Translations under genes and position numbers: made by a program
Notes under the pieces: model-generated
Database searches by the model: none
The model's input: only the letters and a program-made list of their open reading frames with translations
What the model was told of the DNA's origin: nothing
Shown here: one piece after another, positions 34,599 to 55,568 of the stretch
Layout: each line of letters starts with the position of its first letter
Numbering within the stretch: the stretch's first letter is position 1
Virus genome (UHGV): UHGV-0218015
Direction: 5' to 3' (one strand)
Origin: a virus
Length of the DNA stretch: 64,000 bases

Positions 34599-35105
34599 AT
34601 GGGGGGGGTAACCGGTTCGTGGGTCGGTTCTTCGGCCAAGAACGAAACGGGCGAACAATGGATGAGCGCTGCTGGTAGTAAATTAGGATTGGGTAGACCT
34701 TTTATGATGAGTCAAATGGTGGGACGATCTATGGGCTGTAAAATTGCAACCGCTGCATATAGCGATTCTTTAGGTAAGAAATGGGGCGCAGTAGGACCAA
34801 GCTGGCCGTTAAACCAGAAAAATCAGGGAACCATTCAAAACGCGGGTAACTGCGGGGTGGGAACTTTAGTAGGTATTGAGTTACAGTTAACGACGATAGT
34901 TGCCAACGCAAAGCCTACTTTAGCGGTTTACTTACAAGGAGGCAGAGCCTCTAACATTACCGTAAATTTAGGTGGTAACACCTGCGCGCTGGCCTATCAG
35001 CAGGTTATTAACGGACAGCATTATTACTGGACTAATAACATCAGCGCTGCGTTCCAAAACGTGATGAAATCGACAGGCGCACTGCGTGATTTGAGAATTA
35101 GCTAA
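34599..35105 (+). CDS. tail-fibre-module protein (168 aa), paralog of 33800..34345; start codon fused to a G8 tract
   Basis: MGGVTGSWVGSSAKNETGEQWMSAAGSKL...MSQMVGRS; ATG followed by GGGGGGG (34601-34608). Confidence 0.5.
   Translation: MGGVTGSWVGSSAKNETGEQWMSAAGSKLGLGRPFMMSQMVGRSMGCKIATAAYSDSLGKKWGAVGPSWPLNQKNQGTIQNAGNCGVGTLVGIELQLTTIVANAKPTLAVYLQGGRASNITVNLGGNTCALAYQQVINGQHYYWTNNISAAFQNVMKSTGALRDLRIS
34601..34608. repeat. G8 homopolymer inside the start of gene 34599
   Basis: ATGGGGGGGGTAACC read directly. Confidence 0.9.
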
Positions 35106-35139
35106 TTATTTTCAACTGAAAGCGGTTGAAAATAATCGT

Positions 35140-35149
35140 GGGGGGGGGG
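35140..35149. repeat. G10 homopolymer in the intergenic region upstream of gene 35204
   Basis: AATCGTGGGGGGGGGGTGAATG read directly. Confidence 0.9.
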
Positions 35150-35203
35150 TGAATGTTTTTTAGTCAATATTTTATGACCCCCAACCGTAGGAGGTAAACA
35201 TAC

Positions 35204-35716
35204 GTGGAAAAATTCACACCAGATTTATCACTAACTTCACTTAACATGGTTATTTCACTGGTTAACCATGACCTCCAACTTGACTTGCAAGAGAACGAGG
35301 TTGAAGTCAGTGACGTAAAAACCAGTGATGAAATGGATCGTGACTCCACTGCCATTGTAAAGATTAAACGTCCTGGAAACAGAACGTTGCAAATCTACTA
35401 CAACCGTTTAACCGCAGAGCGGTGGTTAAACCAACAACCTATTCTGGTAAAAGTAAGAGGTGAAGGGTTTAATGCACACGATCTTATCGAATCCGTCAAT
35501 GCCGTTTGTGGTGCTAACTTACAAACCGACGATTTAACCGACCAGTCGTTCACGGTAGGTAAAGACGCGGTAACGCTTAGCATCGCTCCGAATTCCATCG
35601 CTTATAAAGGACAGTTCTCCGTGGTGGTTTTCGGCCCAGATGAAACACCGTGTGGCATCGGTGATGATTCTGTCGTGTTGACGTTTGACAATAAAATCTT
35701 AACTTTTGGAGAGTAG
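35204..35716 (+). CDS. tail-fibre-associated accessory protein (170 aa, GTG start), paralog of 28553..29113
   Basis: TAGGAGGTAAACATAC-GTG RBS; sequence parallels the 28553 gene; directly upstream of the tailspike gene. Confidence 0.5.
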   Translation: MEKFTPDLSLTSLNMVISLVNHDLQLDLQENEVEVSDVKTSDEMDRDSTAIVKIKRPGNRTLQIYYNRLTAERWLNQQPILVKVRGEGFNAHDLIESVNAVCGANLQTDDLTDQSFTVGKDAVTLSIAPNSIAYKGQFSVVVFGPDETPCGIGDDSVVLTFDNKILTFGE

Positions 35717-35719
35717 TAG

Positions 35720-37840
35720 ATGAGTCAGCCAATTGGAAAGAAACGTATCCATGAACTCGACAATTTCTCTGGCGATCTCAAAGGTGCGTTAGTTCTTCTT
35801 TCTAAGGAAGAAAAAGAATATAAAATTGATATTGCAAAACTTCAGGGCACGACGGAGCCGGAGTATTACTTCGTGATTCCTATAGCCGGGCAATCTAATG
35901 CGATGAGTTATGGTGAAGGGTTGCCTCTACCGGCGACGTTGGACGCTCCCGATCCGCGAATTAAACAGATGGCGCGCCGTGCGAAGGTAACGCCTAATGG
36001 GGCTGATTGTAAATATAACGACGTCATTCCAGCGGATCACTGTCTGCACGACGTGCAAGATATGTCCAAATACTCGCATCCCAATGCCAATTTGAGCAAA
36101 GGTGAATACGGATGTGTGGGTCAAGGTCTACATATCGCGAAGCGTCTTCTCCCGTATATTCCTAAGAACGCCGGTATCTTACTAGTACCCTGCGCACGCG
36201 GCGGTTCTGCTTTCACGGGTGGTGCAGAAGGTACCTTCGATGAAGCCACAGGAGCCACTGAGTCGTCAATGCTATGGGGGGTGGAGAAACCGCTTTATAA
36301 AGATTTAGTTAGCCGGACCAAAAAAGCTCTAGAAGTTAATCCTAAAAATAAACTCTTGGCTGTAGTGTGGATGCAGGGAGAGTATGATCTGACTAAAGTA
36401 CAATACGCACAACAACCAGCGTTATTTAACGCAATGGTAGAGCGTTTCCGAACTGATCTCTCTGACCATCTCTCTCAGATGCCCGAGTACGACACCGCCG
36501 AAGTACCATGGATCTGCGGGGACACTACCTATTATTGGAAGGAAAAATATCCTGCCCAATATGAAACCGTATACGGTAATTATCGTAACAATGAACAAAA
36601 AAATATCTTTTTTGTTCCATTCATGTACGACGATAATGGCCAACGTGTACCGACTAATGATCCCACTGACGATCCTGATATCACTGGTGCGGCCTATTAC
36701 GGTGCTGCCTCCCGTACTGTTAAAAACTGGACGTCTGAAACAAGGAATAGCCATTTCAGTTCTTGGGCACGACGCGGTATTATCTCAGAGAGAATAGCTG
36801 CCGAGATATTATCAAGAACAGCGATTGGTGCAATGTTCCTGACGAAGAACGACACTAAGAGCTCCAAAGACAATAAGAATGTGGTAAGAAGCTATACCCC
36901 ATTAGTAGAGTCTGTGGGTTATAACGGACGTCGTGGGGATGGTTCCCTGAAAGGGCAAGGTTGGAACAATATCGTTGATTGTAACGTAACCGTGCAAGAT
37001 TCTGAGGATGGAAACGGGCATTTCGTCGAATTAAGAAAGGCTGTAAAGATGAAACCTTGGAATGTAACTAAGTCAATGACATCTGCTGCGGACATGATAC
37101 GTTACGGTGGACGTCTGACCGTTACTTTTAGACTAAAAGGTGATTTAGCAGCAGATCGTTTCGGATTAGGACTTTATTGGCGTATTTCCGCGTCCGACCT
37201 ACCTTCTGGTACTACATTTGCTGACGCTGGTGTGGCTGAGACGAACCCGTACCTAATGTCTTTTTTCTTACAGACCGACGCTACGAATCTTAATCTGATG
37301 CATCATAAAAAGCAAAATGCGAAATTAGGAACTTTTGGTGCGTACGATAATAACTGGCATACGCTTGAAATCATTTATCCTGGTGCCAATAAAACCACAG
37401 TCACACCTGTGCTGGACGGTACGAATGGTACTCCATTTGATCTGGCGAACAGTCCAGCTAAGACCGATTTGAACGAATTGGTTCTGACGGATATTACGAA
37501 AGTTACTGCCTATGATATCGATATTTCTAAGTTTGAGATCTCGGTCAATCGTGATTCTGGTAGCATAGTGTTATCTGAGGAAGATGTGTCGTCTTATGTG
37601 TATTTCCCACCCACCAACCGTGGCGGCCAACTTACTATTCCTGATCTAGAATATAGTGTGGGCAGAAATATTCAGATCGTGGCAAATAAGGCTGGTAAGA
37701 TCACCGTTAAACCGGAAAATTCAAACGTTCTCATCACTCCAAAGAGTGGGACAGAAGGTCTTGCCAAACCCATTGATACCAATGAAAGTATTACGCTAAT
37801 GCAGATTGGTTCCGATGGTAAAAGCTGGGTAGTTATTTAA
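35720..37840 (+). CDS. tailspike/tail fibre (706 aa) with putative SASA/SGNH-type carbohydrate esterase domain
   Basis: N-terminus MSQPIGKKRIHELDNFSGDLKGALVLLSKEEKEYK parallels the 1479-aa fibre N-terminus; FVIPIAGQSNAMSYGEG resembles the GQSN(M) active-site motif of sialate O-acetylesterase-like esterases. Confidence 0.6.
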   Translation: MSQPIGKKRIHELDNFSGDLKGALVLLSKEEKEYKIDIAKLQGTTEPEYYFVIPIAGQSNAMSYGEGLPLPATLDAPDPRIKQMARRAKVTPNGADCKYNDVIPADHCLHDVQDMSKYSHPNANLSKGEYGCVGQGLHIAKRLLPYIPKNAGILLVPCARGGSAFTGGAEGTFDEATGATESSMLWGVEKPLYKDLVSRTKKALEVNPKNKLLAVVWMQGEYDLTKVQYAQQPALFNAMVERFRTDLSDHLSQMPEYDTAEVPWICGDTTYYWKEKYPAQYETVYGNYRNNEQKNIFFVPFMYDDNGQRVPTNDPTDDPDITGAAYYGAASRTVKNWTSETRNSHFSSWARRGIISERIAAEILSRTAIGAMFLTKNDTKSSKDNKNVVRSYTPLVESVGYNGRRGDGSLKGQGWNNIVDCNVTVQDSEDGNGHFVELRKAVKMKPWNVTKSMTSAADMIRYGGRLTVTFRLKGDLAADRFGLGLYWRISASDLPSGTTFADAGVAETNPYLMSFFLQTDATNLNLMHHKKQNAKLGTFGAYDNNWHTLEIIYPGANKTTVTPVLDGTNGTPFDLANSPAKTDLNELVLTDITKVTAYDIDISKFEISVNRDSGSIVLSEEDVSSYVYFPPTNRGGQLTIPDLEYSVGRNIQIVANKAGKITVKPENSNVLITPKSGTEGLAKPIDTNESITLMQIGSDGKSWVVI

Positions 37841-37845
37841 TTTAA

Positions 37846-37889
37846 ACCGTAGGATGGACTTAGTCCATCCTACGGTTTTTATATTTTTT
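37846..37889 (+). terminator. rho-independent terminator
   Basis: Long palindromic stem CCGTAGGATGGAC...GTCCATCCTACGG followed by TTTTTATATTTTTT. Confidence 0.85.
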
Positions 37890-37936
37890 CTCAGATATAT
37901 ATTACCTAGGAGAGAGTGAAATTTACGTTCACTCCA
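37886..37936 (+). promoter_or_regulatory. conserved phage promoter-like motif with downstream hairpin (copy 2)
   Basis: TTTTCTCAGATATATATTACCTAGGAGAGAG followed by hairpin GAGTGAA-ATTTACG-TTCACTC (stem differs from copy 1 but pairing is preserved). Confidence 0.55.
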
Positions 37937-37963
37937 TTAGTTATAGCCGAAAAGGAGGATTAG

Positions 37964-38815
37964 ATGTCACACCCGTATTATCTCCCGCGCATTCTAGCAA
38001 ATAGGGACCCCAGTTATTACTACGAACAAACAAAGGGATTTGTTGAACGACTTTATATTCGTGAATTTAATACCGATGAAATGACAGATGGCCAGTATCT
38101 AGAGTATCTAAAAGACCTTTACGCTTTTTCAAAATCGAATAAAGGTAGGTTTGGACGTTACTCAGTCATTAGAGATGATGAATATCGTCATTTAGCTAAG
38201 CCTGTTACTTACCCTATTGTTACACGCGCCTATACATCGGATAGGCAATATATCGCTGAGCTAAAATTTCCATTGCGGATAGACGGGCCCCAAATTAGCG
38301 CTATAGAAGTAGAGATTCAACCAATTGCTGAAGACTATATTGAAGACTACTTCAAGAAAGCTAAAGACGTACTCGAGGAGGGTTTAAGCTACTCTGAAGA
38401 AGGAACGATCTGTCTTCTCTCGTTACTCACGAAGACTTATATCACAGCAAATTTCCGTATCTCCGATTCCAGTAACTACAATACACTTACCCCCTCTAAA
38501 ACAAAACCTGTTTATTGGGACGATCGGCTAGTCGACAGACAACGCTGGCTTACTATCTTAGATAGAGTAAAATTCGAGCCACCTAAACACACCGAAGACG
38601 ATTTTATTTTATTGCACAACTTCGAACCAATTTATATTCCAACGCATTTTGATCAAGCCTTACGTCATCGGTTGAAGTATGTGTTGGAATTACGGTACGG
38701 GAAGATAAATGGGCTGACCTGTTCTGGTGAATTGGGTGAAGAAGAACGCGAGAAGATAAAAATCGTGTATGATAAGTTGGTTGAAGATTACATTAAGAAG
38801 GAAGGGCAATTATGA
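37964..38815 (+). CDS. hypothetical protein (283 aa)
   Basis: AAAAGGAGGATTAG-ATG RBS downstream of promoter motif. Confidence 0.55.
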   Translation: MSHPYYLPRILANRDPSYYYEQTKGFVERLYIREFNTDEMTDGQYLEYLKDLYAFSKSNKGRFGRYSVIRDDEYRHLAKPVTYPIVTRAYTSDRQYIAELKFPLRIDGPQISAIEVEIQPIAEDYIEDYFKKAKDVLEEGLSYSEEGTICLLSLLTKTYITANFRISDSSNYNTLTPSKTKPVYWDDRLVDRQRWLTILDRVKFEPPKHTEDDFILLHNFEPIYIPTHFDQALRHRLKYVLELRYGKINGLTCSGELGEEEREKIKIVYDKLVEDYIKKEGQL

Positions 38816-39255
38816 AACCAAATACTACTAATGGCATTATGTTGCTTTGTGATTCTGAAACGTTAGCAAACCGTATTCGTGGTTTGATGCAAGTACGTTG
38901 GCAGCAGAAAGTTCTCGTGGATTACGATGCACCGTTTGTTCACATTACCTGGTTGCCAGAAGCTAGTGATTTCAAAGAACGTATAACCACGAGAAGAATT
39001 AAAGAATGGTTATCGGCAATCATTAATAAACAGATTACCGTTATCAATTTCCAACTTTTCGGTACCGCTGAAGAACATGAAATCTTGAAACAGTGTTTAA
39101 GAGACTTGGGTCTTTCCTCTTCTGTTCGTGGTAGCTGCTATACGGCTTACTTTATCGGTTCACTTGAACTGTTTAAGAATACACTAATGCTTCAACTAAA
39201 AGACGACTACAAACTTTTAGATAAAATCGATTTCGAATTCCCAGGCATGATTTAA
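38812..39255 (+). CDS. hypothetical protein (147 aa)
   Basis: ATGA overlap coupling. Confidence 0.5.
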   Translation: MKPNTTNGIMLLCDSETLANRIRGLMQVRWQQKVLVDYDAPFVHITWLPEASDFKERITTRRIKEWLSAIINKQITVINFQLFGTAEEHEILKQCLRDLGLSSSVRGSCYTAYFIGSLELFKNTLMLQLKDDYKLLDKIDFEFPGMI

Positions 39256-39266
39256 GGAACTATAAC

Positions 39267-40109: not shown

Positions 40110-40151
40110 CGAAGGCTTAATCACACCACCATTTACCTAAAGGAGCATTAA

Positions 40152-40667: not shown

Positions 40668-40669
40668 AA

Positions 40670-40985: not shown

Positions 40986-41384
40986 GTGATTTACATGATA
41001 CGTTTATTTTACTTAAAAAGGCGTTTGTCATTAAAAGCCCAACTGTTTGTTAACGAGAAAGTTAAAAACTGGCTGTGCGGTAAAAGGGTACAATATGTCG
41101 TTAAAGAAGGCGACTGGTATACGGAGGTTGTGACTTCCCCTAACGGTGAACTTATAAACGTTACTATTCGTGACGTTATGGTTAAGGTTGGTAGGGGTGG
41201 CGGTCGGTTGTTTGAATCGGAAACTATAAGAGTCGCTGCTAAACAATTGAAAGATGGTCGAGTTTTATTCAATGTTACCGCCCAGAAATACTACGACAAT
41301 TTATTCGAGTGTCAACGAGCAATGGACAGAATGACCCGTGAGATGCGAAGAATGCACATTACGGAGATCACAATAGGAGTTTAA
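40986..41384 (+). CDS. hypothetical protein (132 aa)
   Basis: GTG start after AAGG; ATG at 40995 is an alternative. Confidence 0.45.
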   Translation: MIYMIRLFYLKRRLSLKAQLFVNEKVKNWLCGKRVQYVVKEGDWYTEVVTSPNGELINVTIRDVMVKVGRGGGRLFESETIRVAAKQLKDGRVLFNVTAQKYYDNLFECQRAMDRMTREMRRMHITEITIGV

Positions 41385-41695
41385 TGATGGAAAATAAAAT
41401 CGCGAACACATCGGCACCTGAGAACATTGTCAATTATATTCTCAGTGGCGGGTTATTAGAAGACAACAAAGAAACGTGCGATAAACTCGTTTCTCAACTA
41501 CTGCCTATTCGTTCAGAATACTGCGAAATCGTTATCTTAGGTTCCGAGTATTGTGTACGCTCTTACTGCCGACGTTTCGAAGCTTTACGCGTTCCACGTA
41601 CGTTAGGCGGCGTAATACTTTTAGTCTCTAACTTCCACAGTGCACACGTTCGTGTTGCAACCTGGATTGCAAACGGTGGCGATAATGGTTTTTAA
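41384..41695 (+). CDS. hypothetical protein (103 aa)
   Basis: ORF in array. Confidence 0.45.
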   Translation: MMENKIANTSAPENIVNYILSGGLLEDNKETCDKLVSQLLPIRSEYCEIVILGSEYCVRSYCRRFEALRVPRTLGGVILLVSNFHSAHVRVATWIANGGDNGF

Positions 41696-41981
41696 ACTAA
41701 TTCGACTATTTAAACGTAAGAAATGTCCTGTCTGCGAAATTAATGAAAAGATTATTGCTAAGCAAGACGAGCTAATCAAGCAACAAGATAAGTTGCTCAC
41801 TGAAATGGGCGAACGCTATTTTAAACTTTGTGCTATTACCGAACTGATTAGTGAAGGTGTGTTAACGAAAGACGGTGGGTTAGAGTTGGTCAAGAAGGCA
41901 ACGATTCACTGTCGCCCTGAAGTAGAAAAATATAAACTTGAAGTGAAACGTGAAATGTGGGAGATCATTAATGAAGCGTGA
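41685..41981 (+). CDS. hypothetical protein (about 98 aa; ATG 41685 preferred), C-P-V-C motif
   Basis: ATG at 41685 overlaps upstream stop; the track ORF from 41640 overlaps the previous gene by 56 nt. Confidence 0.4.
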   Translation: MVFKLIRLFKRKKCPVCEINEKIIAKQDELIKQQDKLLTEMGERYFKLCAITELISEGVLTKDGGLELVKKATIHCRPEVEKYKLEVKREMWEIINEA

Positions 41982-42252
41982 AACGGTTGTATTTCGTAGT
42001 AATGGTGATGTGGTTTTGTATCGTGGTAAGAAACGTATTCGTACGTTAGAATACCGAGAAGCAAAACGTTTCGTTGAAGAGTGTGCGTGGTTAATGCATT
42101 ACGAAGGGAACTATCGCGCCATCTTAGAAGCACCGCGTTTAGAACGTGCAGTTGCGCAGATGGCAATAGGTAATCCTAAGAACTGTTACCTGGCCCGTAA
42201 GCCCAAATACCTACAGCGTGTCTCGCTAGGCAGTTTTATTGCGGGTTTTTAA
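41950..42252 (+). CDS. hypothetical protein (100 aa)
   Basis: ORF overlapping upstream gene end. Confidence 0.4.
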   Translation: MKCGRSLMKRETVVFRSNGDVVLYRGKKRIRTLEYREAKRFVEECAWLMHYEGNYRAILEAPRLERAVAQMAIGNPKNCYLARKPKYLQRVSLGSFIAGF

Positions 42253-45508: not shown

Positions 45509-46357
45509 ATGTCTCTTACGTCAAAACAGAAACTGCTAAAACTCATCAACACTGAAAACAATATTGTTCCGCCATTGACCTTCAGTGATGTTGATATCGG
45601 CGAACCTACTGGTACTGGGGTTGATACCCAGGTGGTTCTGACTTCTAAACTCAAAGGCGATGAGTCTACTACTTTAACGGTGACTTACCATCGTCGTAAT
45701 TTGCCCGAATACCTAACAGGTGAGTTGGTATTCGGTAACGACGGTGTTGTAACCGCCTCAGATTTGCTTAACGCAATCAACGCAAAATACGATTTAAATA
45801 TTCTGCCATCGGATATCGTTGATGCGAAAGTTGAAGGTAAAACCCACCAACTTACCGCTAACGAGAAATCTTACGAGTGGTGTGGCGAAGTGACGCTTAC
45901 GCTACGCGATCCTATTGATCTGGCTAAATTGCTACCTGTTACTCAATTAGAAAACCTGGTAGAGTATCCGTCCACTAAGAAAGGTAACGCTGCGGTTTAT
46001 TCTTACCCAATTGACTTCACCGCAGAAAAAGATTACCTTGATCCAATTACCATCAACGGCACCGTAGACTTAGTAGAGTTAGCTACTAAACTGACTAACG
46101 TTGTTGATGAGAAATGGGTAAGCGTACCTAAGAACGCTGCTAATAACTTGTTCGGTGCTAAGGTTATCTACGATGGCCCTACCGCAGGTTTCGAAGGCGC
46201 AAATGCGAAGTACACGCGTGTGCTGGTACTCGCCCTAAGCGGTATGTGTTCTAACCTGACCGGTAAACTGTTAATTCACTTTAACGGAACCGATCGTCCG
46301 AAGTCGAAGATTGAATTAGCCAAGACTAATTCGGTCTTACCGGGATTCTTAGATTAA
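45509..46357 (+). CDS. member 1 of a four-gene paralog family (282 aa), unknown function, possibly virion-associated
   Basis: N-terminus SKQKLLKLINTEN...LTFSDVDIGEPTG parallels 46371, 49515 and 50113 products. Confidence 0.55.
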   Translation: MSLTSKQKLLKLINTENNIVPPLTFSDVDIGEPTGTGVDTQVVLTSKLKGDESTTLTVTYHRRNLPEYLTGELVFGNDGVVTASDLLNAINAKYDLNILPSDIVDAKVEGKTHQLTANEKSYEWCGEVTLTLRDPIDLAKLLPVTQLENLVEYPSTKKGNAAVYSYPIDFTAEKDYLDPITINGTVDLVELATKLTNVVDEKWVSVPKNAANNLFGAKVIYDGPTAGFEGANAKYTRVLVLALSGMCSNLTGKLLIHFNGTDRPKSKIELAKTNSVLPGFLD

Positions 46358-46370: not shown

Positions 46371-46847
46371 ATGACCAGTCAAGAAACTATTTTCGACCTT
46401 ATTAAAAAGGCTAACCCAGACGCCGAGCTCGACACCGCCAAAGTCACATTGGGTGAGCCCGTCGTAAGTACCGGTACGTACAACACCGAAATTACGGTTG
46501 TGCCGGTTAAAAATCTCGGTTATGTTAATAAGCAAACGTTCCAGTATAACCGCATTGATGCAGGTTTGTATTTCCTCAACGTATTGCCGAAACTGTTAGT
46601 TGAGACAGCAACCACGACTGCGGACCTGCTGCCTGTAATTAACGAGCAGTATGGCTTAACCCTTACCGAAGACGATGTGTGGGTAGAGCAGGTTGGTGCG
46701 TTGCCGCTAGACGGCAGTGCAATCGAGCACGGTATTTTCTTCCGCCCCGAGTGTCTAACCTGGGTCGGTGGTTTTACAGTGCGTGTTGCGCGTAAACCGT
46801 CTGTCGAGACACCGCCAGCTAAGCCATCGCGCGCTAAGAAGAAATAA
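46371..46847 (+). CDS. member 2 of paralog family (158 aa)
   Basis: TIFDLIKKANPDAELDTAKVTLGEPVV parallels family N-termini; GAGGATTACAGTA-ATG. Confidence 0.55.
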   Translation: MTSQETIFDLIKKANPDAELDTAKVTLGEPVVSTGTYNTEITVVPVKNLGYVNKQTFQYNRIDAGLYFLNVLPKLLVETATTTADLLPVINEQYGLTLTEDDVWVEQVGALPLDGSAIEHGIFFRPECLTWVGGFTVRVARKPSVETPPAKPSRAKKK

Positions 46848-49514: not shown

Positions 49515-50045
49515 ATGGCTAAAACTTTTCAACAGCAGCTTATCGAACTTATTAACACTAAAAACAGCTCTCTGAGCTCCGCTCTCACCGTAGCTGATGT
49601 TGACTTTAGTGCTGTCGCTGACTTCACCGGAGAAGCTGGCCGCAACACTAAAATTACTCTGACCGCCAAGGCAGAAAGCCAGAACTTCAAAGGCGAGAAA
49701 GAATTCCACTATACTCGTCTTTCCTGCGACATCGTTGGTGAAGTTGAAGTAACTGCACCTACTACCGATTTCGATTCACCAACGAAAATCCTGGCAAAAG
49801 TTAACGCAGCCATGGCTGAGAAAGGGTACACCGATGACGAGTTCGGTGAAAACGACCTGCAAACTATTTCCCGTGAAGAAGAAGGCAAAACCATTTACGT
49901 AGTAACTGTTGTGGCTGGACACCTGAAGTTCCTGCCAGGTACTGTTGCAACGTATAAAGTTACTCCTCCGGCTATTGAGAAAGTAGTATTGAACGGTTTG
50001 GAAGGTGAACTGGATGGCTTCACCGCACCAGCGCCTAAAGAGTAA
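49515..50045 (+). CDS. member 3 of paralog family (176 aa)
   Basis: FQQQLIELINTKNSSLSSALTVADVDF...NTKITLTAKAESQNFKGEKEFHYTRL parallels 50113 product. Confidence 0.55.
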   Translation: MAKTFQQQLIELINTKNSSLSSALTVADVDFSAVADFTGEAGRNTKITLTAKAESQNFKGEKEFHYTRLSCDIVGEVEVTAPTTDFDSPTKILAKVNAAMAEKGYTDDEFGENDLQTISREEEGKTIYVVTVVAGHLKFLPGTVATYKVTPPAIEKVVLNGLEGELDGFTAPAPKE

Positions 50046-50052
50046 TTGATTC

Positions 50053-50090
50053 GGGGGGGGGTGGTAACCTCCCCCGATATTTCTTTAACT
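50053..50090 (+). terminator. terminator-like hairpin containing a G9 tract
   Basis: GGGGGGGGGTGGTAACCTCCCCC hairpin followed by GATATTTCTTTAACTTTCATTTT. Confidence 0.5.
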
Positions 50091-50112
50091 TTCATTTTAA
50101 GGATTTAAGATA

Positions 50113-50643
50113 ATGGCAGCTACTAACCAGATGATGTTAGTTGCGCTTTATAATGCTGCTAACACAGAGCTACCGCATCAGGTCACTGATAAAGAGGTAA
50201 CTTTTGGTCAACCTGTCGCTCTTGAAAAGGGCGATAAAAATACCAAAGTTACCATGACCGCACGTACAGAGTCTGAAAATTTTAAAGGCGCAATCGAACT
50301 GCATTACGATCGTCTGGAACCTGGCGTTATCGGACGCATTGAGGTAACGGACGATTTGGCTCTCTGGACTGGAGAAAACGAACTACGCGACCGATTACAG
50401 TTCTACATCAATAAAGTAAAACCTGACGACTCTATCGCGCCTGGTGACGTTGAGTACACCACCGAAGACCAGAAAGACGAACACGATAGCGTCACTCTGC
50501 GTACGGTAACTTGTACCGTTACTGAAAAGAACCTCCGTTATAAACCGGGTGTAATGGCAACTTTCGTAATTACGCCGAAAGTTGTTGATAATCGTATTGA
50601 CCTGGCCACCACCGACGGTGAACTTGACGGCTTTACTGCTTAA
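50113..50643 (+). CDS. member 4 of paralog family (176 aa)
   Basis: NQMMLVALYNAANTELPHQVTDKEVTF...NTKVTMTARTESENFKGAIELHYDRL. Confidence 0.55.
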   Translation: MAATNQMMLVALYNAANTELPHQVTDKEVTFGQPVALEKGDKNTKVTMTARTESENFKGAIELHYDRLEPGVIGRIEVTDDLALWTGENELRDRLQFYINKVKPDDSIAPGDVEYTTEDQKDEHDSVTLRTVTCTVTEKNLRYKPGVMATFVITPKVVDNRIDLATTDGELDGFTA

Positions 50644-50667
50644 TCGCTAAGTCAACTACTACAACAA

Positions 50668-51387: not shown

Positions 51388-51935
51388 TCATCTTCTCCTT
51401 TAACTAAACCTAGCTCAATTAACAATTCAAAATCGATTTGGCGAAATTTGTTATCAAAACCAGAATCCCAATCGATGTGTAATCCTTGTCGTTCTTCATC
51501 GGTAAGTTCAGGATAAATTAAATCATGGAACGCTTCACGTTCCTCGTAAAATCCATCGATAGTAGAATCTGGATTCCGCATTGCGTAAATCGTGATGCCC
51601 GGAAAGGATAATCCTAATGCTGTTATAGATTCGACGCTTGGTTCTTGCAAGGCCCTGCGTAATAGCACGATTTTATGTCGTGGAAAATCTAGTACACGTT
51701 GTTCAAACCCAGGATTCCGTTTCTCAATTTCTGTAACTGAAAGATCGGTGAGTTCTGTGCAATACATTGGGATAACTACAGTTACTCCGTGGCGAATTAA
51801 TAATCGTTTAACATCGTCAGTGAAGTCTTCACCATTAATTTGCACATAACAACCAAACAATTTTGTAGTTTCTAAAAATTTTTCCAGAAAACGGAATTTA
51901 CGCTTCGTAATATTGTGGATCAGAATTGGCTTCAT
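51363..51935 (-). CDS. hypothetical protein (190 aa) in rSAM/Cys-rich operon
   Basis: - strand ORF overlapping the SPASM rSAM gene end by 38 nt. Confidence 0.5.
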   Translation of the reverse strand: MKPILIHNITKRKFRFLEKFLETTKLFGCYVQINGEDFTDDVKRLLIRHGVTVVIPMYCTELTDLSVTEIEKRNPGFEQRVLDFPRHKIVLLRRALQEPSVESITALGLSFPGITIYAMRNPDSTIDGFYEEREAFHDLIYPELTDEERQGLHIDWDSGFDNKFRQIDFELLIELGLVKGEDECLLLTKA

Positions 51936-53220
51936 CTTTGGTTTCTCTCAATTGTTTTTCTTTCTGGGTACGTTCACGTACGCAACGAGGGCAATAACAC
52001 ATGCTATTGTCATGAAAATCTTTCACTGACGTCGTGCCCATTTTCTGTTTCCAATATTCCGCAACCATCAACTTTGCAGTTGTCCAGCCGCATTGACGGC
52101 GTTCAGCGTGATAAGCTTTGCGATCTTCTAGCGTCCCTTCTCCATTCTCGTAAGATGCAGCCGCACAACTACCACAAGCGTGCTTCATTGGACAACCTAA
52201 ACAGGTTTCAGGATAGTTGGTGTATTGCGTCTGAATCTCTTCCAGCAATTTCCCGTCATCTAAGCTAACGAATTCCCGGCCAACTAATTCAAATACGGCA
52301 GAACGTGATGTTACGGTTGACATGAAACGGTTACAACCGAAGATCTTACGATCAAATCCTAAGCAGGTCATGTGTGTTAACGTACCGCAGAACGGGCGTA
52401 AACGTTCTGGATTCAAACGTACAGTATCGTTATACAATAACTGATCACGCCAGTTTGGTTCCCAGATAGTATCAAAATCTAACCCGTCTGGAATGATGTG
52501 CGACAAAGTGTTACGTGGGTTGGTGTGTAAGCCCTTCTCAACCCAATAATCAACCACGTCCATCATCTGCAATGCGATTGAAGTAGCCATGCTCCGTGGC
52601 ATAATGTCTTCGAAGGTTACGTTGCCAGAAATAGTTCCGCCGCCAGTAATATCAATTAATGATTTCATTCCAGCAGCATAGAACGGTAACGTTTCCAACG
52701 TAAAGGTCGCTTTTACACCAAGTTCTGCAATACCGACTTCTTTTAAGTAGTTATAGCCCCGCACAGCGGCCTCGTAAGATCCTTCACGAGTTGTTGTAAA
52801 AATCCGGTACTTATCGTGCGATTCGGGCAATCCATCAATAGACACGCCGATAGAAAGCCTGTCTTTCCAACGTTCAATAATTTCTCTATTCAAAGGTCTA
52901 TCTAACAACGTTCCGTTAGTAGAGATGCTAAACATAAACGGCCGATTATGTTTTTCGCATAACTCTTCTGCGGTTTCAAATGCCGCCTTTAATAGTTTAG
53001 GCTGCATAAACGGCTCACCACCGATGATATCGATAACGACCTCGATGTTTGTCAGATCTTTATCTCGTTCAAAACAAGCGTGTAGAAAATCAACAATATC
53101 CGCCGCTTTGTTATTACGGGGATACTTACGTTCGTAACAATACTCACAGTCCAAGTTACACGATAAATTTGTAACAATTTGATAAGTCAGTTGTTTTGGA
53201 TAACTATTTTCTTGACTCAT
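51898..53220 (-). CDS. radical SAM enzyme with C-terminal SPASM-like auxiliary Cys cluster domain (440 aa), putative peptide-modifying maturase
   Basis: N-terminal CNLDCEYC (C-x3-C-x2-C), GGEP SAM-binding motif, C-terminal CGTLTHMTC...GC and CLGCPMKHACGSC (C-x2-C-x5-C-x2-C) clusters. Confidence 0.8.
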   Translation of the reverse strand: MSQENSYPKQLTYQIVTNLSCNLDCEYCYERKYPRNNKAADIVDFLHACFERDKDLTNIEVVIDIIGGEPFMQPKLLKAAFETAEELCEKHNRPFMFSISTNGTLLDRPLNREIIERWKDRLSIGVSIDGLPESHDKYRIFTTTREGSYEAAVRGYNYLKEVGIAELGVKATFTLETLPFYAAGMKSLIDITGGGTISGNVTFEDIMPRSMATSIALQMMDVVDYWVEKGLHTNPRNTLSHIIPDGLDFDTIWEPNWRDQLLYNDTVRLNPERLRPFCGTLTHMTCLGFDRKIFGCNRFMSTVTSRSAVFELVGREFVSLDDGKLLEEIQTQYTNYPETCLGCPMKHACGSCAAASYENGEGTLEDRKAYHAERRQCGWTTAKLMVAEYWKQKMGTTSVKDFHDNSMCYCPRCVRERTQKEKQLRETKDEANSDPQYYEA

Positions 53221-54142
53221 TTTCCGCCCCTCTATTACGCTCTGCCATCACTACACGACGAATGTACTCGTAAGCTTCTACACCTATTGAGGAGGCTAGT
53301 TGGTTACACCCTGCTTTTGTAGTTATTGGTACATTTTTAAGTTGGTTTTCTTCCCCGTCCGCGTCTATCCTGAGACTTTCGCTACAGACATTACAAGCAT
53401 GATCGAAGAATCTGTTTACAATAAAACCGCAGTCTCTAGAATTTAGAACGTTTAATCTTTCTATATTCTCCTGAATTCTAAAATACCCGTAAATAAAGTT
53501 CATAACGTGATCGGGAGATAACGGTTTTGGCATGTTTTTATCTAGTAATAAGGACATGGAACGAAAACCGTAATGATAGATAGCAGTATGTAATTGAATG
53601 ATATCTTCATGCCATCTTTTGTTGGATAAATTCTCCCTCGTAACAACAGCCCAAGTGTTAACATTATTCAAGCTGTAAATTACTTCTAACGCTTCATGAC
53701 AATTATCATCAATAAAGCGCTTAAAAGGCCGTTCGGAAAGATTAAACCCATCGATGCTAACATATATAGCATCGAATTGTTTTAACAACGGTAGATGCGA
53801 TTTACGCATTTTTAAACCGTTCGTGAACATCTGGTGTTTGAGTTCAGGACGGATCGTTTTTAATTCGTCGACAAACGCCTCAATCTTTCGAGTTGCCAGT
53901 AGCGGTTCACCGCCAGTCCACTGAATTTCAGTAATGGTTGGGTTAGACGCCAACGCTTTCAAAATTCGTTCACGTTGAAACTCTCGCGGAGAATCTTCAC
54001 GATGCATGTAATAGGCTCCGCCGCAGAAGCTACAGTCCAGATTACATTTGGATGTAGCAACTACGGACAATACGGTGGGTTTATTGTATAAACGATTCGA
54101 TAACCTTGGCTCTACGTCGGTTGTCATTGCAGGTGAGTCCAT
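53204..54142 (-). CDS. radical SAM enzyme (312 aa), paralog of 56177..57091
   Basis: SKCNLDCSFCGG (C-x3-C-x2-C), QWTGGEPLL; C-terminal C-x12-C-x2-C; three nucleotide-identical patches with the paralog. Confidence 0.8.
   Translation of the reverse strand: MDSPAMTTDVEPRLSNRLYNKPTVLSVVATSKCNLDCSFCGGAYYMHREDSPREFQRERILKALASNPTITEIQWTGGEPLLATRKIEAFVDELKTIRPELKHQMFTNGLKMRKSHLPLLKQFDAIYVSIDGFNLSERPFKRFIDDNCHEALEVIYSLNNVNTWAVVTRENLSNKRWHEDIIQLHTAIYHYGFRSMSLLLDKNMPKPLSPDHVMNFIYGYFRIQENIERLNVLNSRDCGFIVNRFFDHACNVCSESLRIDADGEENQLKNVPITTKAGCNQLASSIGVEAYEYIRRVVMAERNRGAENESRK
53457..53539. repeat. 83-nt patch 100% identical to 56421..56503 (between radical SAM paralogs)
   Basis: CTTTCTATATTCTCCTGAATTCTAAAATACCCGTAAATAAAGTTCATAACGTGATCGGGAGATAACGGTTTTGGCATGTTTTT present in both genes; further identical patches 53782..53818 = 56747..56783 and 54002..54055 = 56966..57019. 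Confidence 0.85.
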
Positions 54143-54149
54143 CTATTTT

Positions 54150-55037
54150 TTAAATATAGCCAATGGATAACAAAGGATCGTCGTAAGCGTTAACTCCAGG
54201 TTTTAATACAAACGGTGAATTGTAAGCCTCAATAATACGATTAAGGTCTTTATAACGCACGTTTAAACGTTCTAGATCCGCTAACGTTACGTTACGTTCC
54301 AATACCGCCGACACTGCCGCTTTTTCTTCATCAGTTAACGTGACTTTCGTCATTAAGAAACTAACAAGTTTCGCTAAATCTGCTTCCGATGACGGATGTT
54401 CACCAATACGTGTTTGAATTAAATGCTGCATCCATGGTTTACGAATACGTTTTGTGATTTCATGTTCATCTGTAAGGGCAACCCATACTGAACGTTCACG
54501 ATCCCACATAAATTTGTAACTGTACGCCATCAGATCTGCTAAACAGTTGATGCCAAGTTCCTCGTAACCTTCTATTTCAATATACGGTTCAGTATCAACA
54601 TAGTTTTTTGTTTCTACAGGAACCAGGGCATAAAAGTACGGGAATGAACCAAGATAGTCTGGAGACCACCAACGTCGTGCTACAGGCTTCGCATTCAACT
54701 CTTTAAATGGCGTAAAGAACAATTCCAAATCTACAGAATTATTCAGAATACCGTCACTAAAGAAATATTTACCGTCAACCAATTTACCGCGTAAATCTGA
54801 ATCACCGGTAAACACCACTACGCTTTCTGCTGTCAGATCGCGTATTTTAAAAGTGTTTTCTACTGAATAGTTATTGCGATCGGTAAAAAAACGACCACGC
54901 ACTTTGGGCCATTCGCCAGGTAACTGGGTTAACAAACGAACTTTATCTTCCAAATGAGCGCGTATTGAATCGGGGGAAGAAATATGAAGTGGGTGGTTGA
55001 AAATTGTTTTATAGGCTAAATGCAAATCGTTTTTCAT
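54150..55037 (-). CDS. hypothetical protein (295 aa) in rSAM/Cys-rich operon
   Basis: - strand ORF, 7 nt downstream gap to rSAM gene. Confidence 0.5.
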   Translation of the reverse strand: MKNDLHLAYKTIFNHPLHISSPDSIRAHLEDKVRLLTQLPGEWPKVRGRFFTDRNNYSVENTFKIRDLTAESVVVFTGDSDLRGKLVDGKYFFSDGILNNSVDLELFFTPFKELNAKPVARRWWSPDYLGSFPYFYALVPVETKNYVDTEPYIEIEGYEELGINCLADLMAYSYKFMWDRERSVWVALTDEHEITKRIRKPWMQHLIQTRIGEHPSSEADLAKLVSFLMTKVTLTDEEKAAVSAVLERNVTLADLERLNVRYKDLNRIIEAYNSPFVLKPGVNAYDDPLLSIGYI

Positions 55038-55049
55038 TGATTACTCCAA

Positions 55050-55568
55050 TTATTTTACGGTCAATCTGACGTTCAAGGTATAGAACCCGCCACGCCATTG
55101 CCTGCCGGTAACTTCAAATTCTGCAGTAAAGCCGTTTGATTTACTCGGTTGCTGCTTAATCGCCATGCTTCCGCCGGAATTACTTAATACTTCTAATGAG
55201 ATAGAAGCAGAAGATGCATTACCGATAGAGTCTATCTTAAAACTAGCCGCGTCTGTAAAATTAACAGTGATACCATTACCCATTGCAACTTGAGGGTAGG
55301 CGTAGGACTTTCCAGACAGTAACGATTTAAAGACCCTTATCGGTTTCTCTCTACCGGTTGACGTTACGCATTGAATAAAGACAGCCCCAGTAGAGAAATT
55401 GATACGAACAGTATCTTTAGCGTGTAGCTTAGACTCAACATAAACAACGGCTTTGTTGTCGTAGGTTGGTCTTGAAGGGGTTGGCGTAGAACCACCGCTA
55501 GAGGGCTTACTTACCCCCCCCCGCCCCCTTACTACAGCTACCGCTGCACGACCAACTACATCCGCCAT
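55050..55568 (-). CDS. hypothetical protein (172 aa) with Gly/Ser/Pro-rich N-terminal linker; 5' end overlaps Cys-rich peptide gene C across a G-homopolymer
   Basis: Only in-frame ATG is at 55568, 62 nt inside gene C; N-terminal codons span GGGGGCGGGGGGGGG (C9-G-C5 on + strand, 55514-55528). Confidence 0.4.
   Translation of the reverse strand: MADVVGRAAVAVVRGRGGVSKPSSGGSTPTPSRPTYDNKAVVYVESKLHAKDTVRINFSTGAVFIQCVTSTGREKPIRVFKSLLSGKSYAYPQVAMGNGITVNFTDAASFKIDSIGNASSASISLEVLSNSGGSMAIKQQPSKSNGFTAEFEVTGRQWRGGFYTLNVRLTVK

What the first reader, a model, noticed from the sequence alone, without database searches (positions are those of the whole stretch)
34601..55528. Four long G/C homopolymeric tracts (8-10 nt) at gene boundaries of fibre-module and cluster genes
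G8 at 34601..34608 immediately follows the ATG of a fibre-module gene, so a +/-1 change would truncate it. G10 at 35140..35149 lies in the upstream region of the accessory gene 35204, and G9 at 50053..50061 is in the terminator hairpin after paralog gene 49515..50045. C9-G-C5 at 55514..55528 is at the peptide C / 172-aa ORF junction. Tracts this long are expected less than once by chance in 64 kb at this base composition and are classic sites of slipped-strand phase variation, which in phages can diversify host range, or of systematic sequencing error.
Basis: partly seen in the sequence, partly recalled or inferred. Interest (0 to 1): 0.55.

Follow-up and report, generated by a model that had tools for sequence, protein, structure and literature searches.

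The report
Length-variable poly-G switches in gut jumbo phage
Four long runs of G (or C) in this ~225-kb gut phage are real and change length between otherwise identical copies of the phage; two of them turn a spare host-binding protein and part of another protein on or off, a trick so far documented in only a few phages.

Summary
The window is part of an uncultivated ~225-kb phiKZ/SPN3US-related jumbo phage seen in many gut metagenomes and in Salmonella/E. coli isolate assemblies. Across 36 independent contigs every tract varies in length (G7-10, G9-13, G9-12, G9-11). Runs of 7 nt or fewer hardly vary. Two pairs of ~20-kb loci differ almost only by tract indels.

Tract 1 gates a second gp38-type adhesin: G8 is in frame, G7/9/10 are not, and about 20% of contigs are ON. 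Tract 4 encodes a poly-Gly linker. Only G8 or G11 fuses a Cys-rich (CXXX-repeat) peptide to a 154-codon C-terminal domain that stays intact and shows an excess of synonymous changes. Sister lineages carry the fused gene.

Tracts 2 and 3 are the G arms of conserved intergenic hairpins; tract 3 is a terminator whose stability barely changes from G8 to G13.

The phase-variation reading is supported for tracts 1 and 4. For tracts 2 and 3 the length drift is probably near-neutral. This is a new member of a known kind, alongside Campylobacter phage polyG tracts and T2/T4 contingency loci. No reads were available, so switching within a single clone is unproven.

The parts
34601..34608 (+). Tract 1: G8, made of the G of the ATG plus 7 more G. 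It is the frame switch of adhesin B. G8 is in frame; G7, G9 and G10 truncate the product after 2-26 residues.
   Evidence: The tract is G7-G10 among relatives. It is specific to this lineage, since homologues elsewhere start ATGGGGGTAGC.
34599..35105 (+). Adhesin B, 168 aa: a short adhesin with a Gp38_N domain, and the second adhesin gene of the fibre module.
   Evidence: phrog_1121 tail fiber adhesin at 6.6e-44. Precomputed Pfam PF21721 Gp38_N. N-terminus aligned with homologues. The coding sequence after the tract is intact in all 31 loci and identical in 29 of them.
29319..33758 (+). Long tail-fibre protein, gp37-like distal subunit, 1479 aa.
   Evidence: PHROG tail-fibre families. Pfam Phage_fiber_2, Gp34_trimer and Peptidase_S74 on the identical protein in relatives.
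33800..34345 (+). Adhesin A, 181 aa, with a Gp38_N domain: the first, constitutive adhesin. It has only a G5 at its start.
   Evidence: phrog_1121 at 6.9e-53, PF21721, start sequence.
34356..34586 (+). Cor exclusion lipoprotein gene, lying between the two adhesin genes.
   Evidence: NCBIfam NF047972 at 69 bits against a cut-off of 31; phrog_1119.
35140..35149 (+). Tract 2: G10 in the leader of the DUF7941 gene. It is the 5' arm of a predicted long hairpin whose 3' arm is the CCCCC at 35178-35182.
   Evidence: It is G9-G13 among relatives. It is conserved as G9-G11 in sister lineages and as G10 in E. coli 98232, and is interrupted (GGAGGGGG) in the E. ludwigii element.
35204..35716 (+). DUF7941 virion-structural paralogue, 170 aa, downstream of tract 2.
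   Evidence: phrog_2935 virion structural protein; PF25613.
50051..50077 (+). Intrinsic-terminator-like hairpin. Its 5' arm is tract 3 (G9, 50053-50061), its 3' arm is CCTCCCCCGA, and its tail is TATTTCTTT.
   Evidence: Terminator scan, 10 pairs. Fold of -25.6 kcal/mol for the 81-nt region. The 3' arm and tail are identical in five lineages. Hairpin energy stays at -21 to -23 kcal/mol from G8 to G13. The tract is G9-G12 among relatives.
50113..50643 (+). DUF7941 paralogue, 176 aa, downstream of tract 3.
   Evidence: Pfam PF25613 at 3.4e-09.
55514..55522 (-). Tract 4: G9 on the coding strand (C9 on the + strand), encoding the poly-Gly linker. G9 or G10 gives a stop after the peptide. G8 or G11 fuses the peptide to the downstream domain.
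   Evidence: G9 x7, G10 x5, G11 x1 (the 222-aa fusion in L039) and one interrupted allele, G4AG5.
55507..55716 (-). Peptide C, 69 aa: a leader plus a Cys-X3-repeat core (CNGGCSWSCSGSCS) ending in KGAGGGK*.
   Evidence: Translation. The neighbouring 132-aa paralogue hits TIGR04114. Three radical SAM genes lie alongside.
55050..55511 (-). C-terminal domain ORF, 154 codons, predicted all-beta. It is in the +1 frame relative to peptide C in this window and has no start or ribosome-binding site of its own after the tract.
   Evidence: intact in all 14 genomes, with 17 synonymous against 8 non-synonymous and 14 against 5 codon differences in the divergent alleles. AlphaFold model of low confidence.
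40110..40151 (+). Site of a fifth tract in sister alleles (GCATTAACTA-C8-10-ACACC). This window instead carries GGCTTAATCACACCACC, with no run.
28528..28536 (+). Control: T9 U-tail of the strong terminator 28489-28520. It also occurs as T10 in about half of the relatives.

Best explanation
The four tracts are genuine hypermutable homopolymers in a ~225-kb enterobacterial jumbo phage. They gain and lose single G's by replication slippage far faster than the surrounding DNA acquires substitutions. The consequences differ by position.

(1) Tract 1 is a frameshift switch at codons 1-3 of a second gp38-type fibre-tip adhesin. G8 (and, by inference, G11) makes full-length adhesin B. G7, G9 and G10 stop translation within 2-26 residues. 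A phage population therefore holds a minority of genomes (about 20%) able to display adhesin B in addition to the constitutive adhesin A. I infer that this bet-hedges receptor use.

(2) Tract 4 encodes the poly-glycine linker of a modular protein: an N-terminal leader, a Cys-X3-repeat core that is a probable radical-SAM target, and a variable C-terminal beta domain. Only G8 or G11 join the two halves. G9 (this window) and G10 yield the 68/69-aa peptide alone.

(3) Tracts 2 and 3 are the G-rich 5' arms of conserved intergenic RNA hairpins in front of two DUF7941 virion-protein paralogues. Tract 3 is an intrinsic terminator. Once the run reaches about 8 G, extra G's only enlarge the loop, so length drifts almost neutrally. 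Any effect on read-through is speculative.

Shown: presence, enrichment, population polymorphism, frame consequences, intact OFF alleles, fused orthologues. Inferred: slippage as the cause, reversibility within a lineage, effect on host range, adaptive value.
For: Real and more than chance.

Polymorphism: the lengths are t1 G7-10, t2 G9-13, t3 G9-12 and t4 G9-11 across 36 independent contigs from three assembly sources and from isolate genomes. Of 1,843 observations of runs of 7 nt or fewer, only 19 differ from the window.

Far faster than substitution:
- L002 vs L015: 19,903 bp, 0 mismatches; the only differences are 1-nt indels at t1 and t2.
- L003 vs L017: 2 mismatches, plus indels only at t1, t2 and t5.
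- L031 vs L033: 0 SNPs in 6.1 kb, with t4 at G10 vs G9.
- ON and OFF states of t1 occur in several haplotype clades.

Not decaying pseudogenes:
- The adhesin B coding sequence after the tract is intact in 31 of 31 loci and identical in 29.
- The C-domain ORF is intact in 14 of 14 genomes, with an excess of synonymous changes.

Fused form of t4:
- L039 (G11) encodes a 222-aa fusion.
- Sister lineages encode fusions of 226 aa and 210 aa with the same N-module and unrelated C-domains.
- One of these is joined by a pure G11, the other by interrupted Gly codons.

ON/OFF census for t1: the 168-aa product is on 21 contigs, and the 124-aa OFF-state gene call is in 89 index blocks.

Tracts 2 and 3:
- In the complete 221,873-bp relative from E. 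coli 98232, the only G/C runs of 7 nt or more are the orthologues of t2 and t3.
- The 3' arm and tail of t3 are invariant across lineages.
- The terminator scan flags t3 and its folding energy is flat from G8 to G13.

Precedent: polyG tracts giving phase-variable receptor-binding proteins in Campylobacter Fletchervirus phages (Sorensen 2021, as described in PMC11959909 and PMC10579305), and contingency loci in T2/T4 (bioRxiv 10.1101/2025.10.21.683753).
Against: - No reads were available. All lengths are assembly consensus values, and homopolymers are the weakest point of short-read assemblies.
- Two contigs end at or inside a tract: L025 at t4 and L064 in t2.
- Both coding switches are OFF in most genomes: t1 ON in 1 of 10 unbiased loci, and the t4 fusion in 1 of 14. 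That also fits relaxed selection.
- Tract 1 exists only in this lineage and sits exactly where the sequence upstream of adhesin B was replaced. It could be a by-product of that recombination rather than an evolved switch.
- The one long A/T control, the T9 run, is also polymorphic (T9 x12, T10 x10), so variability is a property of any long run.
- The hairpin proposed for t2 has no compensatory covariation.
- No phenotype was tested.
Confidence: 0.65

Rival explanations
1. Sequencing or assembly artefact. The tract lengths differ between contigs because short-read chemistry and assemblers miscount long G/C homopolymers; the phage genomes themselves are invariant.
For: All comparison sequences are short-read metagenome or draft assemblies. 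Contigs break at or in tracts: L025 at t4 and L064 in t2. Only long runs vary, which is also what an error model predicts.
Against: - Lengths span 3-4 values per tract, and each is reported as a clean consensus in contigs of up to 226 kb from several independent assembly sources (ENA 'scaffold' and 'k141' contigs, Logan, NCBI).
- An ENA contig and a Logan contig with identical 15.3-kb sequence agree on both tracts (L001 vs L008).
- Orthologous tracts of 9-10 nt are present in two finished circular records.
- A substitution-interrupted allele (G4AG5, L021) and a codon-interrupted orthologue (L051) show real evolutionary turnover at the t4 site.
- Consensus calling normally recovers the modal length at G8-G10.
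Confidence: 0.1
2. Neutral mutational hot spots on dispensable genes. The tracts really do slip, but this has no adaptive use. Adhesin B became redundant when the adhesin A + cor cassette arrived, and the C-domain after tract 4 is being lost. The switches are simply the first lesions of pseudogenisation.
For: - Most genomes are OFF at both coding tracts.
- Tract 1 is lineage-specific and lies at a recombination joint.
- Relatives with a single B-type adhesin have no tract there.
- In E. coli 98232 the t4 C-domain is largely deleted.
Against: - There is no second disabling mutation in any OFF allele of adhesin B (31 loci) or of the C-domain (14 genomes).
- The C-domain shows a clear excess of synonymous change, 17:8 and 14:5.
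- ON alleles recur in several haplotype backgrounds, including backgrounds identical to OFF genomes.
- A pure tract at the t4 site persists in three lineages with different C-domains.
Confidence: 0.25
3. Recoding at the RNA or ribosome level. The G runs are slippery sites at which the transcribing polymerase or the ribosome shifts frame. Each genome, whatever its DNA length, would then make both the short and the long product, as with phage tail-chaperone G/GT or dnaX-type slippage.
For: The C-domain is under purifying selection even in genomes where it is out of frame, and it has no start or Shine-Dalgarno of its own after the tract. Runs of 9-11 identical bases are slippage-prone in general (established knowledge, not tested here).
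Against: - Programmed recoding sites keep a fixed length, whereas here the DNA occupies all three frames.
- One lineage has replaced the run by mixed Gly codons and is simply in frame (L051), so the fusion needs no recoding.
- No structure stands out after tract 4: the fold z-score is -1.35.
- This idea can add to DNA-level switching rather than replace it.
Confidence: 0.15
4. Tracts 2 and 3 are regulatory switches. Their length sets terminator read-through or leader structure, and so the dosage of the downstream DUF7941 virion-protein paralogues.
For: - Both lie immediately upstream of DUF7941 paralogues.
- They are the only long G/C runs in a whole 222-kb relative.
- They stay pure across lineages whose flanks have diverged.
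Against: - Predicted stability of the t3 hairpin is flat from G8 to G13.
- The t2 helix has no covariation support, and its G arm is interrupted in one lineage.
- No promoter motif was found around either tract.
- There are no Rfam matches.
Confidence: 0.15

Closest known systems
Hypermutable polyG tracts in Campylobacter Fletchervirus phages (Sorensen et al. 2021, Cell Rep 35:109214; described in PMC11959909, PMC10579305)
   Same: Poly-G runs inside phage structural or receptor-binding genes. The phage population holds ON and OFF subpopulations and so varied receptor recognition.
   Different: That case was shown experimentally in cultured phages of a host that itself relies on polyG switching. 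Here the phage is an uncultivated enterobacterial phiKZ/SPN3US-like jumbo phage and the evidence is comparative only. The switch sits at the initiation codon of a second gp38-type adhesin, and further tracts lie in intergenic hairpins.
Phage contingency loci in T2/T4 (Gomez, Barrick & Waters, bioRxiv 10.1101/2025.10.21.683753)
   Same: Homopolymer slippage gives reversible frameshifts in phage genes and population heterogeneity used as bet-hedging. Such repeats were reported in every functional class of phage genes.
   Different: Those are mainly poly-A runs of 6-9 nt, for example in agt, which affect evasion of restriction. Mutant frequencies of about 7e-4 were measured in reads. Here the runs are G8-G13, they affect an adhesin and a modular Cys-rich protein, and no frequencies were measured.
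Bacterial simple-sequence contingency loci (Campylobacter, Neisseria, Haemophilus; reviewed in PMC4235727)
   Same: The same mechanism and the same two placements: inside the 5' end of an ORF, or in non-coding DNA upstream of a gene.
   Different: Those are cellular genomes with mismatch-repair contexts of their own. In this phage there is no evidence that the upstream tracts sit in a promoter spacer.
Other phage tropism switches: Mu/P1 invertible G/C segments and Bordetella phage diversity-generating retroelements (cited in PMC10579305)
   Same: One genome can produce virions with alternative fibre tips.
   Different: Those use site-specific inversion or mutagenic retrohoming, with dedicated enzymes. 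Here no enzyme is needed, only a slippery run.
T2/T6/S16-type gp38 tail-fibre adhesins
   Same: Adhesins A and B carry the Gp38_N domain and follow a gp37-like fibre gene.
   Different: Both are short (181 and 168 aa) and lack the Pfam GP38 (PF05268) glycine-rich receptor-binding domain found in the 261-aa adhesin of relative L054. Two adhesin genes are separated by a cor gene.

Membership tests
Simple-sequence-repeat contingency locus (phase variation by slipped-strand mispairing) | A homopolymer of about 7 nt or more lies inside an ORF or its control region. | tested here: met
   t1 is within codons 1-3 of adhesin B, and t4 is within the last codons of peptide C.
Simple-sequence-repeat contingency locus (phase variation by slipped-strand mispairing) | A change of +/-1 repeat unit switches between a full-length and a truncated product. 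| tested here: met
   t1: G8 gives 168 aa, G10 gives MGGG*, G9 gives a 26-aa peptide, and G7 gives MGG*. t4: G9 gives 69 aa, G10 gives 68 aa, and G11 gives the 222-aa fusion.
Simple-sequence-repeat contingency locus (phase variation by slipped-strand mispairing) | Repeat length changes at a rate far above the point-mutation rate, and does so recurrently. | tested here: met
   Population level only. Loci with 0-2 substitutions in 19.9 kb differ at 2-3 tracts. ON and OFF states are spread over several haplotype clades. Each tract has 3-4 length alleles.
Simple-sequence-repeat contingency locus (phase variation by slipped-strand mispairing) | Reversible switching is measurable within a clonal lineage. 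| not testable with these tools
   No reads and no cultured phage. Amplicon or UMI sequencing of a plaque-purified stock is needed.
Simple-sequence-repeat contingency locus (phase variation by slipped-strand mispairing) | OFF alleles otherwise keep an intact, conserved ORF. | tested here: met
   Adhesin B is intact in 31 of 31 loci. The C-domain is intact in 14 of 14 genomes, with more synonymous than non-synonymous changes.
Simple-sequence-repeat contingency locus (phase variation by slipped-strand mispairing) | The switch changes a phenotype under fluctuating selection, such as host range. | not testable with these tools
   Inferred only, from the adhesin annotation.
gp38-type tail-fibre tip adhesin | An N-terminal Gp38_N fibre-attachment domain, with the gene directly downstream of a gp37-like fibre gene. 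| tested here: met
   PF21721 on both adhesins, phrog_1121, invariant N-terminal residues, and the fibre gene at 29319-33758.
gp38-type tail-fibre tip adhesin | The C-terminal GP38 glycine-rich receptor-binding domain (Pfam PF05268). | tested here: not met
   Only PF21721 is on record for the 168-aa and 181-aa proteins, whereas the 261-aa adhesin of relative L054 carries PF05268. They are best called short Gp38_N-domain adhesins.
Intrinsic (rho-independent) terminator (tract 3) | A GC-rich stem-loop directly followed by a U-rich tail, placed after a stop codon. | tested here: met
   50051-50077 has a 10-bp stem and the tail TATTTCTTT, 8 nt after the stop. The 3' arm and tail are invariant in five lineages.
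Intrinsic (rho-independent) terminator (tract 3) | Transcripts actually end there. | not testable with these tools
   Needs Term-seq or 3' RACE.
CXXX-repeat radical-SAM target peptide system (TIGR04114 / TIGR04115) | A peptide with Cys-X3 repeats that matches the repeat model. | tested here: inconclusive
   The neighbouring 132-aa peptide scores 22.3 bits on TIGR04114 against a cut-off of 20. The protein tested for peptide C, the 222-aa L039 fusion, hits no NCBIfam model, although peptide C shows CNGGCSWSCSGSCS.
CXXX-repeat radical-SAM target peptide system (TIGR04114 / TIGR04115) | An adjacent maturase reaching the TIGR04115 equivalog cut-off. | tested here: not met
   The 440-aa radical SAM protein has TIGR04115 as its best hit, but at 118.9 bits against a cut-off of 350. 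It is related to that family, not a member by NCBI's rule.
Programmed frameshift / transcriptional slippage site | The length of the slippery run is conserved among relatives. | tested here: not met
   t4 is G9, G10 or G11 in near-identical genomes, and is replaced by mixed Gly codons in L051.

The most novel reading that the evidence does not exclude
The poly-G runs may be more than switches: they may mark module-exchange joints, and perhaps help create them.

At tract 4, three unrelated C-terminal domains are attached to the same Cys-rich N-module exactly at the poly-G/poly-Gly run. At tract 1, the run sits exactly where the DNA upstream of adhesin B was replaced when the adhesin A + cor cassette arrived.

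If homopolymer runs serve as microhomology for cassette swapping, and then double as ON/OFF gates for the newly joined module, this phage family would couple domain shuffling to phase variation in one sequence element.
Probability: 0.15. Interest if true: 0.75.

Novelty: new member of a known kind. Interest (0 to 1): 0.55.

Why it matters
Phase variation used by phages themselves has been called an exceptional case (PMC11959909). Until a 2025 preprint on T-even phages, it rested on Campylobacter phages alone.

Here the same device appears in a widespread but uncultivated jumbo phage of Enterobacteriaceae from the human gut, and it gates a fibre-tip adhesin. The natural experiment already exists. 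Hundreds of public metagenomes carry this phage, many apparently from one cohort, so ON/OFF dynamics could be read directly from existing data and related to the resident E. coli or Salmonella strains.

There are practical consequences too. Gene callers split or truncate these genes: 124 aa instead of 168 aa, and 68/69 + 77/96/172 aa instead of 222 aa. Host-range predictions and phage-therapy cocktails built on such phages would need to take account of the tract state.

Tried and rejected
- Close cultured relatives. Megablast of 46 kb of the window against 50,697 phage records gave only short patches, so tract comparison with named phages was impossible.
- IMG/VR scan with the 706-aa neighbour protein: no relatives found.
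- Sigma-70 promoter reading of tracts 2 and 3, with the run as a -35/-10 spacer as in Neisseria or Bordetella. No convincing hexamers flank either run, and promoter-like hits are no more frequent than in shuffled sequence. Rejected for lack of support.
- Known RNA families around the tracts: no Rfam match at E <= 1 in 28-57 kb.
- Conserved structure for the tract 2 leader. RNAalifold draws a G-run:C-run helix, but 0 of 20 pairs covary. Left as unproven.
- Structure of the C-domain after tract 4. The AlphaFold2 model from a 3-sequence alignment has mean pLDDT 54.9 and is all-beta. That is too poor for a fold search, so none was run.
- The 172-aa ORF (55568-55050) as a real gene. Its ATG arises from the Asn-Gly codons of the conserved Cys-rich motif read in another frame, it has no ribosome-binding site, and it exists only in the G9 state. 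I regard it as a gene-caller artefact.
- A first enrichment simulation by explicit Markov sampling timed out. It was replaced by analytical expectations.

Full report
**Observation**

The window contains exactly four G/C homopolymers of 7 nt or more: G8 at 34601-34608, G10 at 35140-35149, G9 at 50053-50061 and C9 at 55514-55522. The last is followed by G and C5. The next longest are three G6 runs, and there is no C run of 6-8 nt. Analytical expectations for G/C runs of at least 8 nt are 0.56, 0.36 and 0.20 under order-0, order-1 and order-2 models, against 4 observed (P = 3e-3 to 6e-5). A/T runs are not enriched. The three T9 runs are the U-tails of strong terminators.

**What the window is**

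The region encodes a gp37-like long tail fibre (29319-33758) and two short Gp38_N-domain adhesins (33800-34345 and 34599-35105). A Cor exclusion lipoprotein gene (34356-34586) separates the adhesins. There are also many virion proteins of phiKZ/SPN3US-type PHROG families and six DUF7941 paralogues. A cluster of three radical SAM genes lies next to three Cys-X3-repeat peptides.

No cultured phage is close. Proteins identical to those of the window, however, occur on contigs of ~225 kb in many gut metagenomes, in Logan assemblies and in an NCBI isolate assembly. Homologues are named from Salmonella Enteritidis, Typhimurium and Chester, from E. coli and from Shigella. Two finished circular records of ~222 kb, deposited as plasmids of E. 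coli 98232 and Enterobacter ludwigii, are sister lineages.

**Tract lengths in relatives**

I read every tract in 36 independent contigs plus the window.

| Tract | Lengths observed |
|---|---|
| Tract 1 | G7 x1, G8 x11, G9 x5, G10 x6 (ten of the G8 contigs were retrieved through the ON protein, so they are a biased sample) |
| Tract 2 | G9 x8, G10 x10, G11 x4, G13 x1 |
| Tract 3 | G9 x7, G10 x10, G11 x1, G12 x1 |
| Tract 4 | G9 x7, G10 x5, G11 x1, plus one allele interrupted by a substitution (G4AG5) |

A fifth tract (C8-10) exists in an alternative allele of the intergenic region 40110-40151, which in this window reads CACACCACC.

As a control, of 1,843 observations of runs of 5-7 nt only 19 differ from the window. 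The T9 terminator tail at 28528 is T9 or T10, so variability rises steeply with run length, as slippage predicts.

The strongest evidence comes from near-identical pairs.
- L002 and L015 align over 19,903 bp with no mismatch, and differ only by one G at tract 1 and one G at tract 2.
- L003 and L017 have 2 mismatches, plus indels only at tracts 1, 2 and 5.
- L001 (ENA) and L008 (Logan) are identical over 15.3 kb, tracts included.
- L031 and L033 have no SNP in 6.1 kb but differ at tract 4.
- In the 9-kb and 6-kb alignments, short indels occur only in the tracts and at three short sites in the 37.9-kb intergenic region and one at the T6 run at 54146.

**Tract 1**

The run includes the G of the start codon: ATG GGG GGG GTA. 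G8 gives the 168-aa adhesin B. G9 gives a 26-residue peptide, G10 reads MGGG-stop and G7 reads MGG-stop.
- In ten loci retrieved through the neighbouring gene, an unbiased sample, one is G8 and nine are G9 or G10.
- In the index, the exact ON product is on 21 contigs and the 124-aa OFF-state gene call is in 89 blocks.
- ON and OFF occur in the same haplotypes.
- The coding sequence after the tract is intact in 31 of 31 loci and identical in 29.
- All homologues elsewhere, and adhesin A itself, begin MGVASGW, encoded ATGGGGGTAGC with only G5.
- The window lineage diverges from them from the first codons upstream. The tract therefore sits at the joint created when the adhesin A + cor cassette came to lie in front of adhesin B.
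- Relatives have either the B-type adhesin alone or a full GP38 adhesin plus the B type, without a tract.

I infer that the population carries a minority of genomes that can put a second adhesin on the fibre tips.

**Tract 4**

On the coding strand the sequence is AAG GGG GCG GGG GGG GGT AAG TAA (KGAGGGK-stop). It ends a 69-aa peptide with a leader and the core CNGGCSWSCSGSCS. After the run, in the +1 frame, lies a 154-codon ORF beginning VSKPSSGGSTPTPSRP. This looks like a linker followed by a beta-rich domain, and it has no start or ribosome-binding site of its own.
- G10 gives a 68-aa peptide. G11 (L039) gives a 222-aa fusion.
- Sister lineages encode fusions of 226 aa and 210 aa with the same N-module and two other, unrelated C-domains.
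- One of these is joined by a pure G11. The other is joined by GGC GGA GGG GGA GGG, a run locked by mixed codons.
- The E. ludwigii element has G9, the split state.
- The C-domain ORF is intact in all 14 genomes. Its divergent alleles differ from the window by 17 synonymous against 8 non-synonymous, and 14 against 5, codons.

The fused protein is therefore the functional design, and the run, which encodes its glycine linker, decides whether the C-domain is made.

**Tracts 2 and 3**

Tract 3 is the 5' arm of a hairpin with the 3' arm CCTCCCCCGA, followed by TATTTCTTT. The terminator scan flags it.
- The 3' arm and tail are identical in five lineages, while the loop and the upstream flank differ.
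- The all-G arm pairs with the T of the 3' arm only as G-U, which suggests that the element works as RNA.
- Predicted stability is -21 to -23 kcal/mol for G8-G13 and falls below G8.

Length drift above 8 therefore costs almost nothing.

Tract 2 lies 54 nt before the start of a DUF7941 gene. It is predicted to pair with a downstream C/U-rich segment around a small AT hairpin, but no pair covaries. In E. ludwigii the arm is GGAGGGGG, opposite CCCCCT.

In the complete 221,873-bp E. coli 98232 relative, the only G/C runs of 7 nt or more are the orthologues of tracts 2 and 3. This argues that these two runs are maintained rather than random. Other lineages carry a similar G9-10 hairpin arm in front of the fibre gene. 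I found no promoter motif and no Rfam family at either site.

**Mechanism and rivals**

The best-supported account is replication slippage at long G runs. It produces two true frame switches (tracts 1 and 4) and two tolerated length polymorphisms in hairpin arms (tracts 2 and 3).

- *Sequencing error.* The arguments against it are agreement between assemblers, clean sample-specific consensus lengths, finished genomes with orthologous runs, and substitution-interrupted alleles. Without reads it cannot be excluded. Two contigs do break at tracts.
- *Neutral decay of dispensable genes.* This fits the OFF majority and the recombination-joint origin of tract 1. It does not fit the intact ORFs or the purifying selection on the C-domain.
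- *Transcriptional or ribosomal slippage.* This may add to DNA-level switching at tract 4. It is not required, and the variable length is unlike programmed recoding sites.

**Comparison with what is known**

Phage-encoded polyG phase variation of receptor-binding proteins is established for Campylobacter Fletchervirus phages (Sorensen 2021, as summarised in PMC11959909 and PMC10579305). A 2025 preprint demonstrates poly-A contingency loci in T2/T4 and proposes that they are widespread (10.1101/2025.10.21.683753).

The present case works in the same way and meets the sequence-level criteria of a contingency locus. Clonal switching rates and phenotype remain untested. It is a new member of a known kind. 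It is notable for its host group, for the jumbo-phage background, for the adhesin-start position, and for a linker-encoded switch in a modular Cys-rich protein. It is also notable because public metagenomes already hold the data for a direct test.

Noticed in passing
window 51898-57506 (minus strand): A RiPP-like cluster inside a jumbo phage. It has three radical SAM genes (56177-57091, 53204-54142, 51898-53220) and three Cys-X3-repeat proteins (57111-57506, 55720-56118, 55507-55716). The best NCBIfam hit of the 440-aa enzyme is the CXXX-repeat-target maturase TIGR04115, below its cut-off. The 132-aa peptide passes the TIGR04114 cut-off. The cluster is conserved in the ~222-kb sister lineages.
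   Followed up: partly
window 34356-34586: A Cor-type exclusion lipoprotein gene (NF047972, 69 bits) lies between the two adhesin genes. This suggests that adhesin A targets the receptor that Cor blocks (FhuA in T1/phi80-type phages, from general knowledge). Sister lineages lack both cor and adhesin A.
   Followed up: partly
NZ_CP173450.1 (L058-L062); NZ_CP134650.1 (L063); L025, L057; P0002, P0009: Relatives of this lytic-looking jumbo phage are deposited as circular 222-kb 'plasmids' of E. coli 98232 (urine) and Enterobacter ludwigii (gull cloaca). They also occur in draft assemblies of Salmonella isolates. This suggests a carrier state, pseudolysogeny or plasmid-like persistence.
   Followed up: no
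window 55568-55050 and 34731-35105: Gene callers give different gene models according to tract state: 172, 96 or 77 aa instead of the fused 222 aa, and 124 aa instead of 168 aa. Protein databases therefore hold several artefactual versions of the same genes.
   Followed up: yes
window ~31.8 kb within 29319-33758: The fibre gene exists in two forms, 1479 and 1439 aa, differing by a 120-bp in-frame indel among otherwise close genomes (alignment columns 2565-2684).
   Followed up: no
window 18773-18891 and 37841-37963: A repeated intergenic motif, TTTTTTCTCAGATATATATTAC(C/T)TAGG(A/T)GAGAG, follows terminator hairpins. It also occurs in relatives. From memory it resembles the AT-rich early-promoter consensus of phiKZ-like phages; this was not tested.
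   Followed up: no
window ~53,510 (inside radical SAM gene 53204-54142); L027, L028, L029: Contigs from three different assemblies all end at the same position inside this gene (each locus stops 3,397 nt after the start of 50113-50643). It may be a repeat shared by the radical SAM paralogues or a genome terminus.
   Followed up: no
window 34599-35105 versus flanks: The 498-nt adhesin B coding sequence after the tract is identical in 29 of 31 loci, although the flanking 9 kb differ by up to ~2% (195 SNPs). L006 vs L019 shows clustered, mosaic differences. Both point to frequent recombination or a recent sweep of this cassette.
   Followed up: partly
window 41384-42252 and the six DUF7941 genes (28553-29113, 35204-35716, 45509-46357, 46371-46847, 49515-50045, 50113-50643): Several small tandem paralogue families, of ~100-aa genes and of DUF7941 virion proteins, vary in length between genomes (98/102/103 aa; 154/158/159 aa). 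Several Logan contigs break near 42.3 kb.
   Followed up: no
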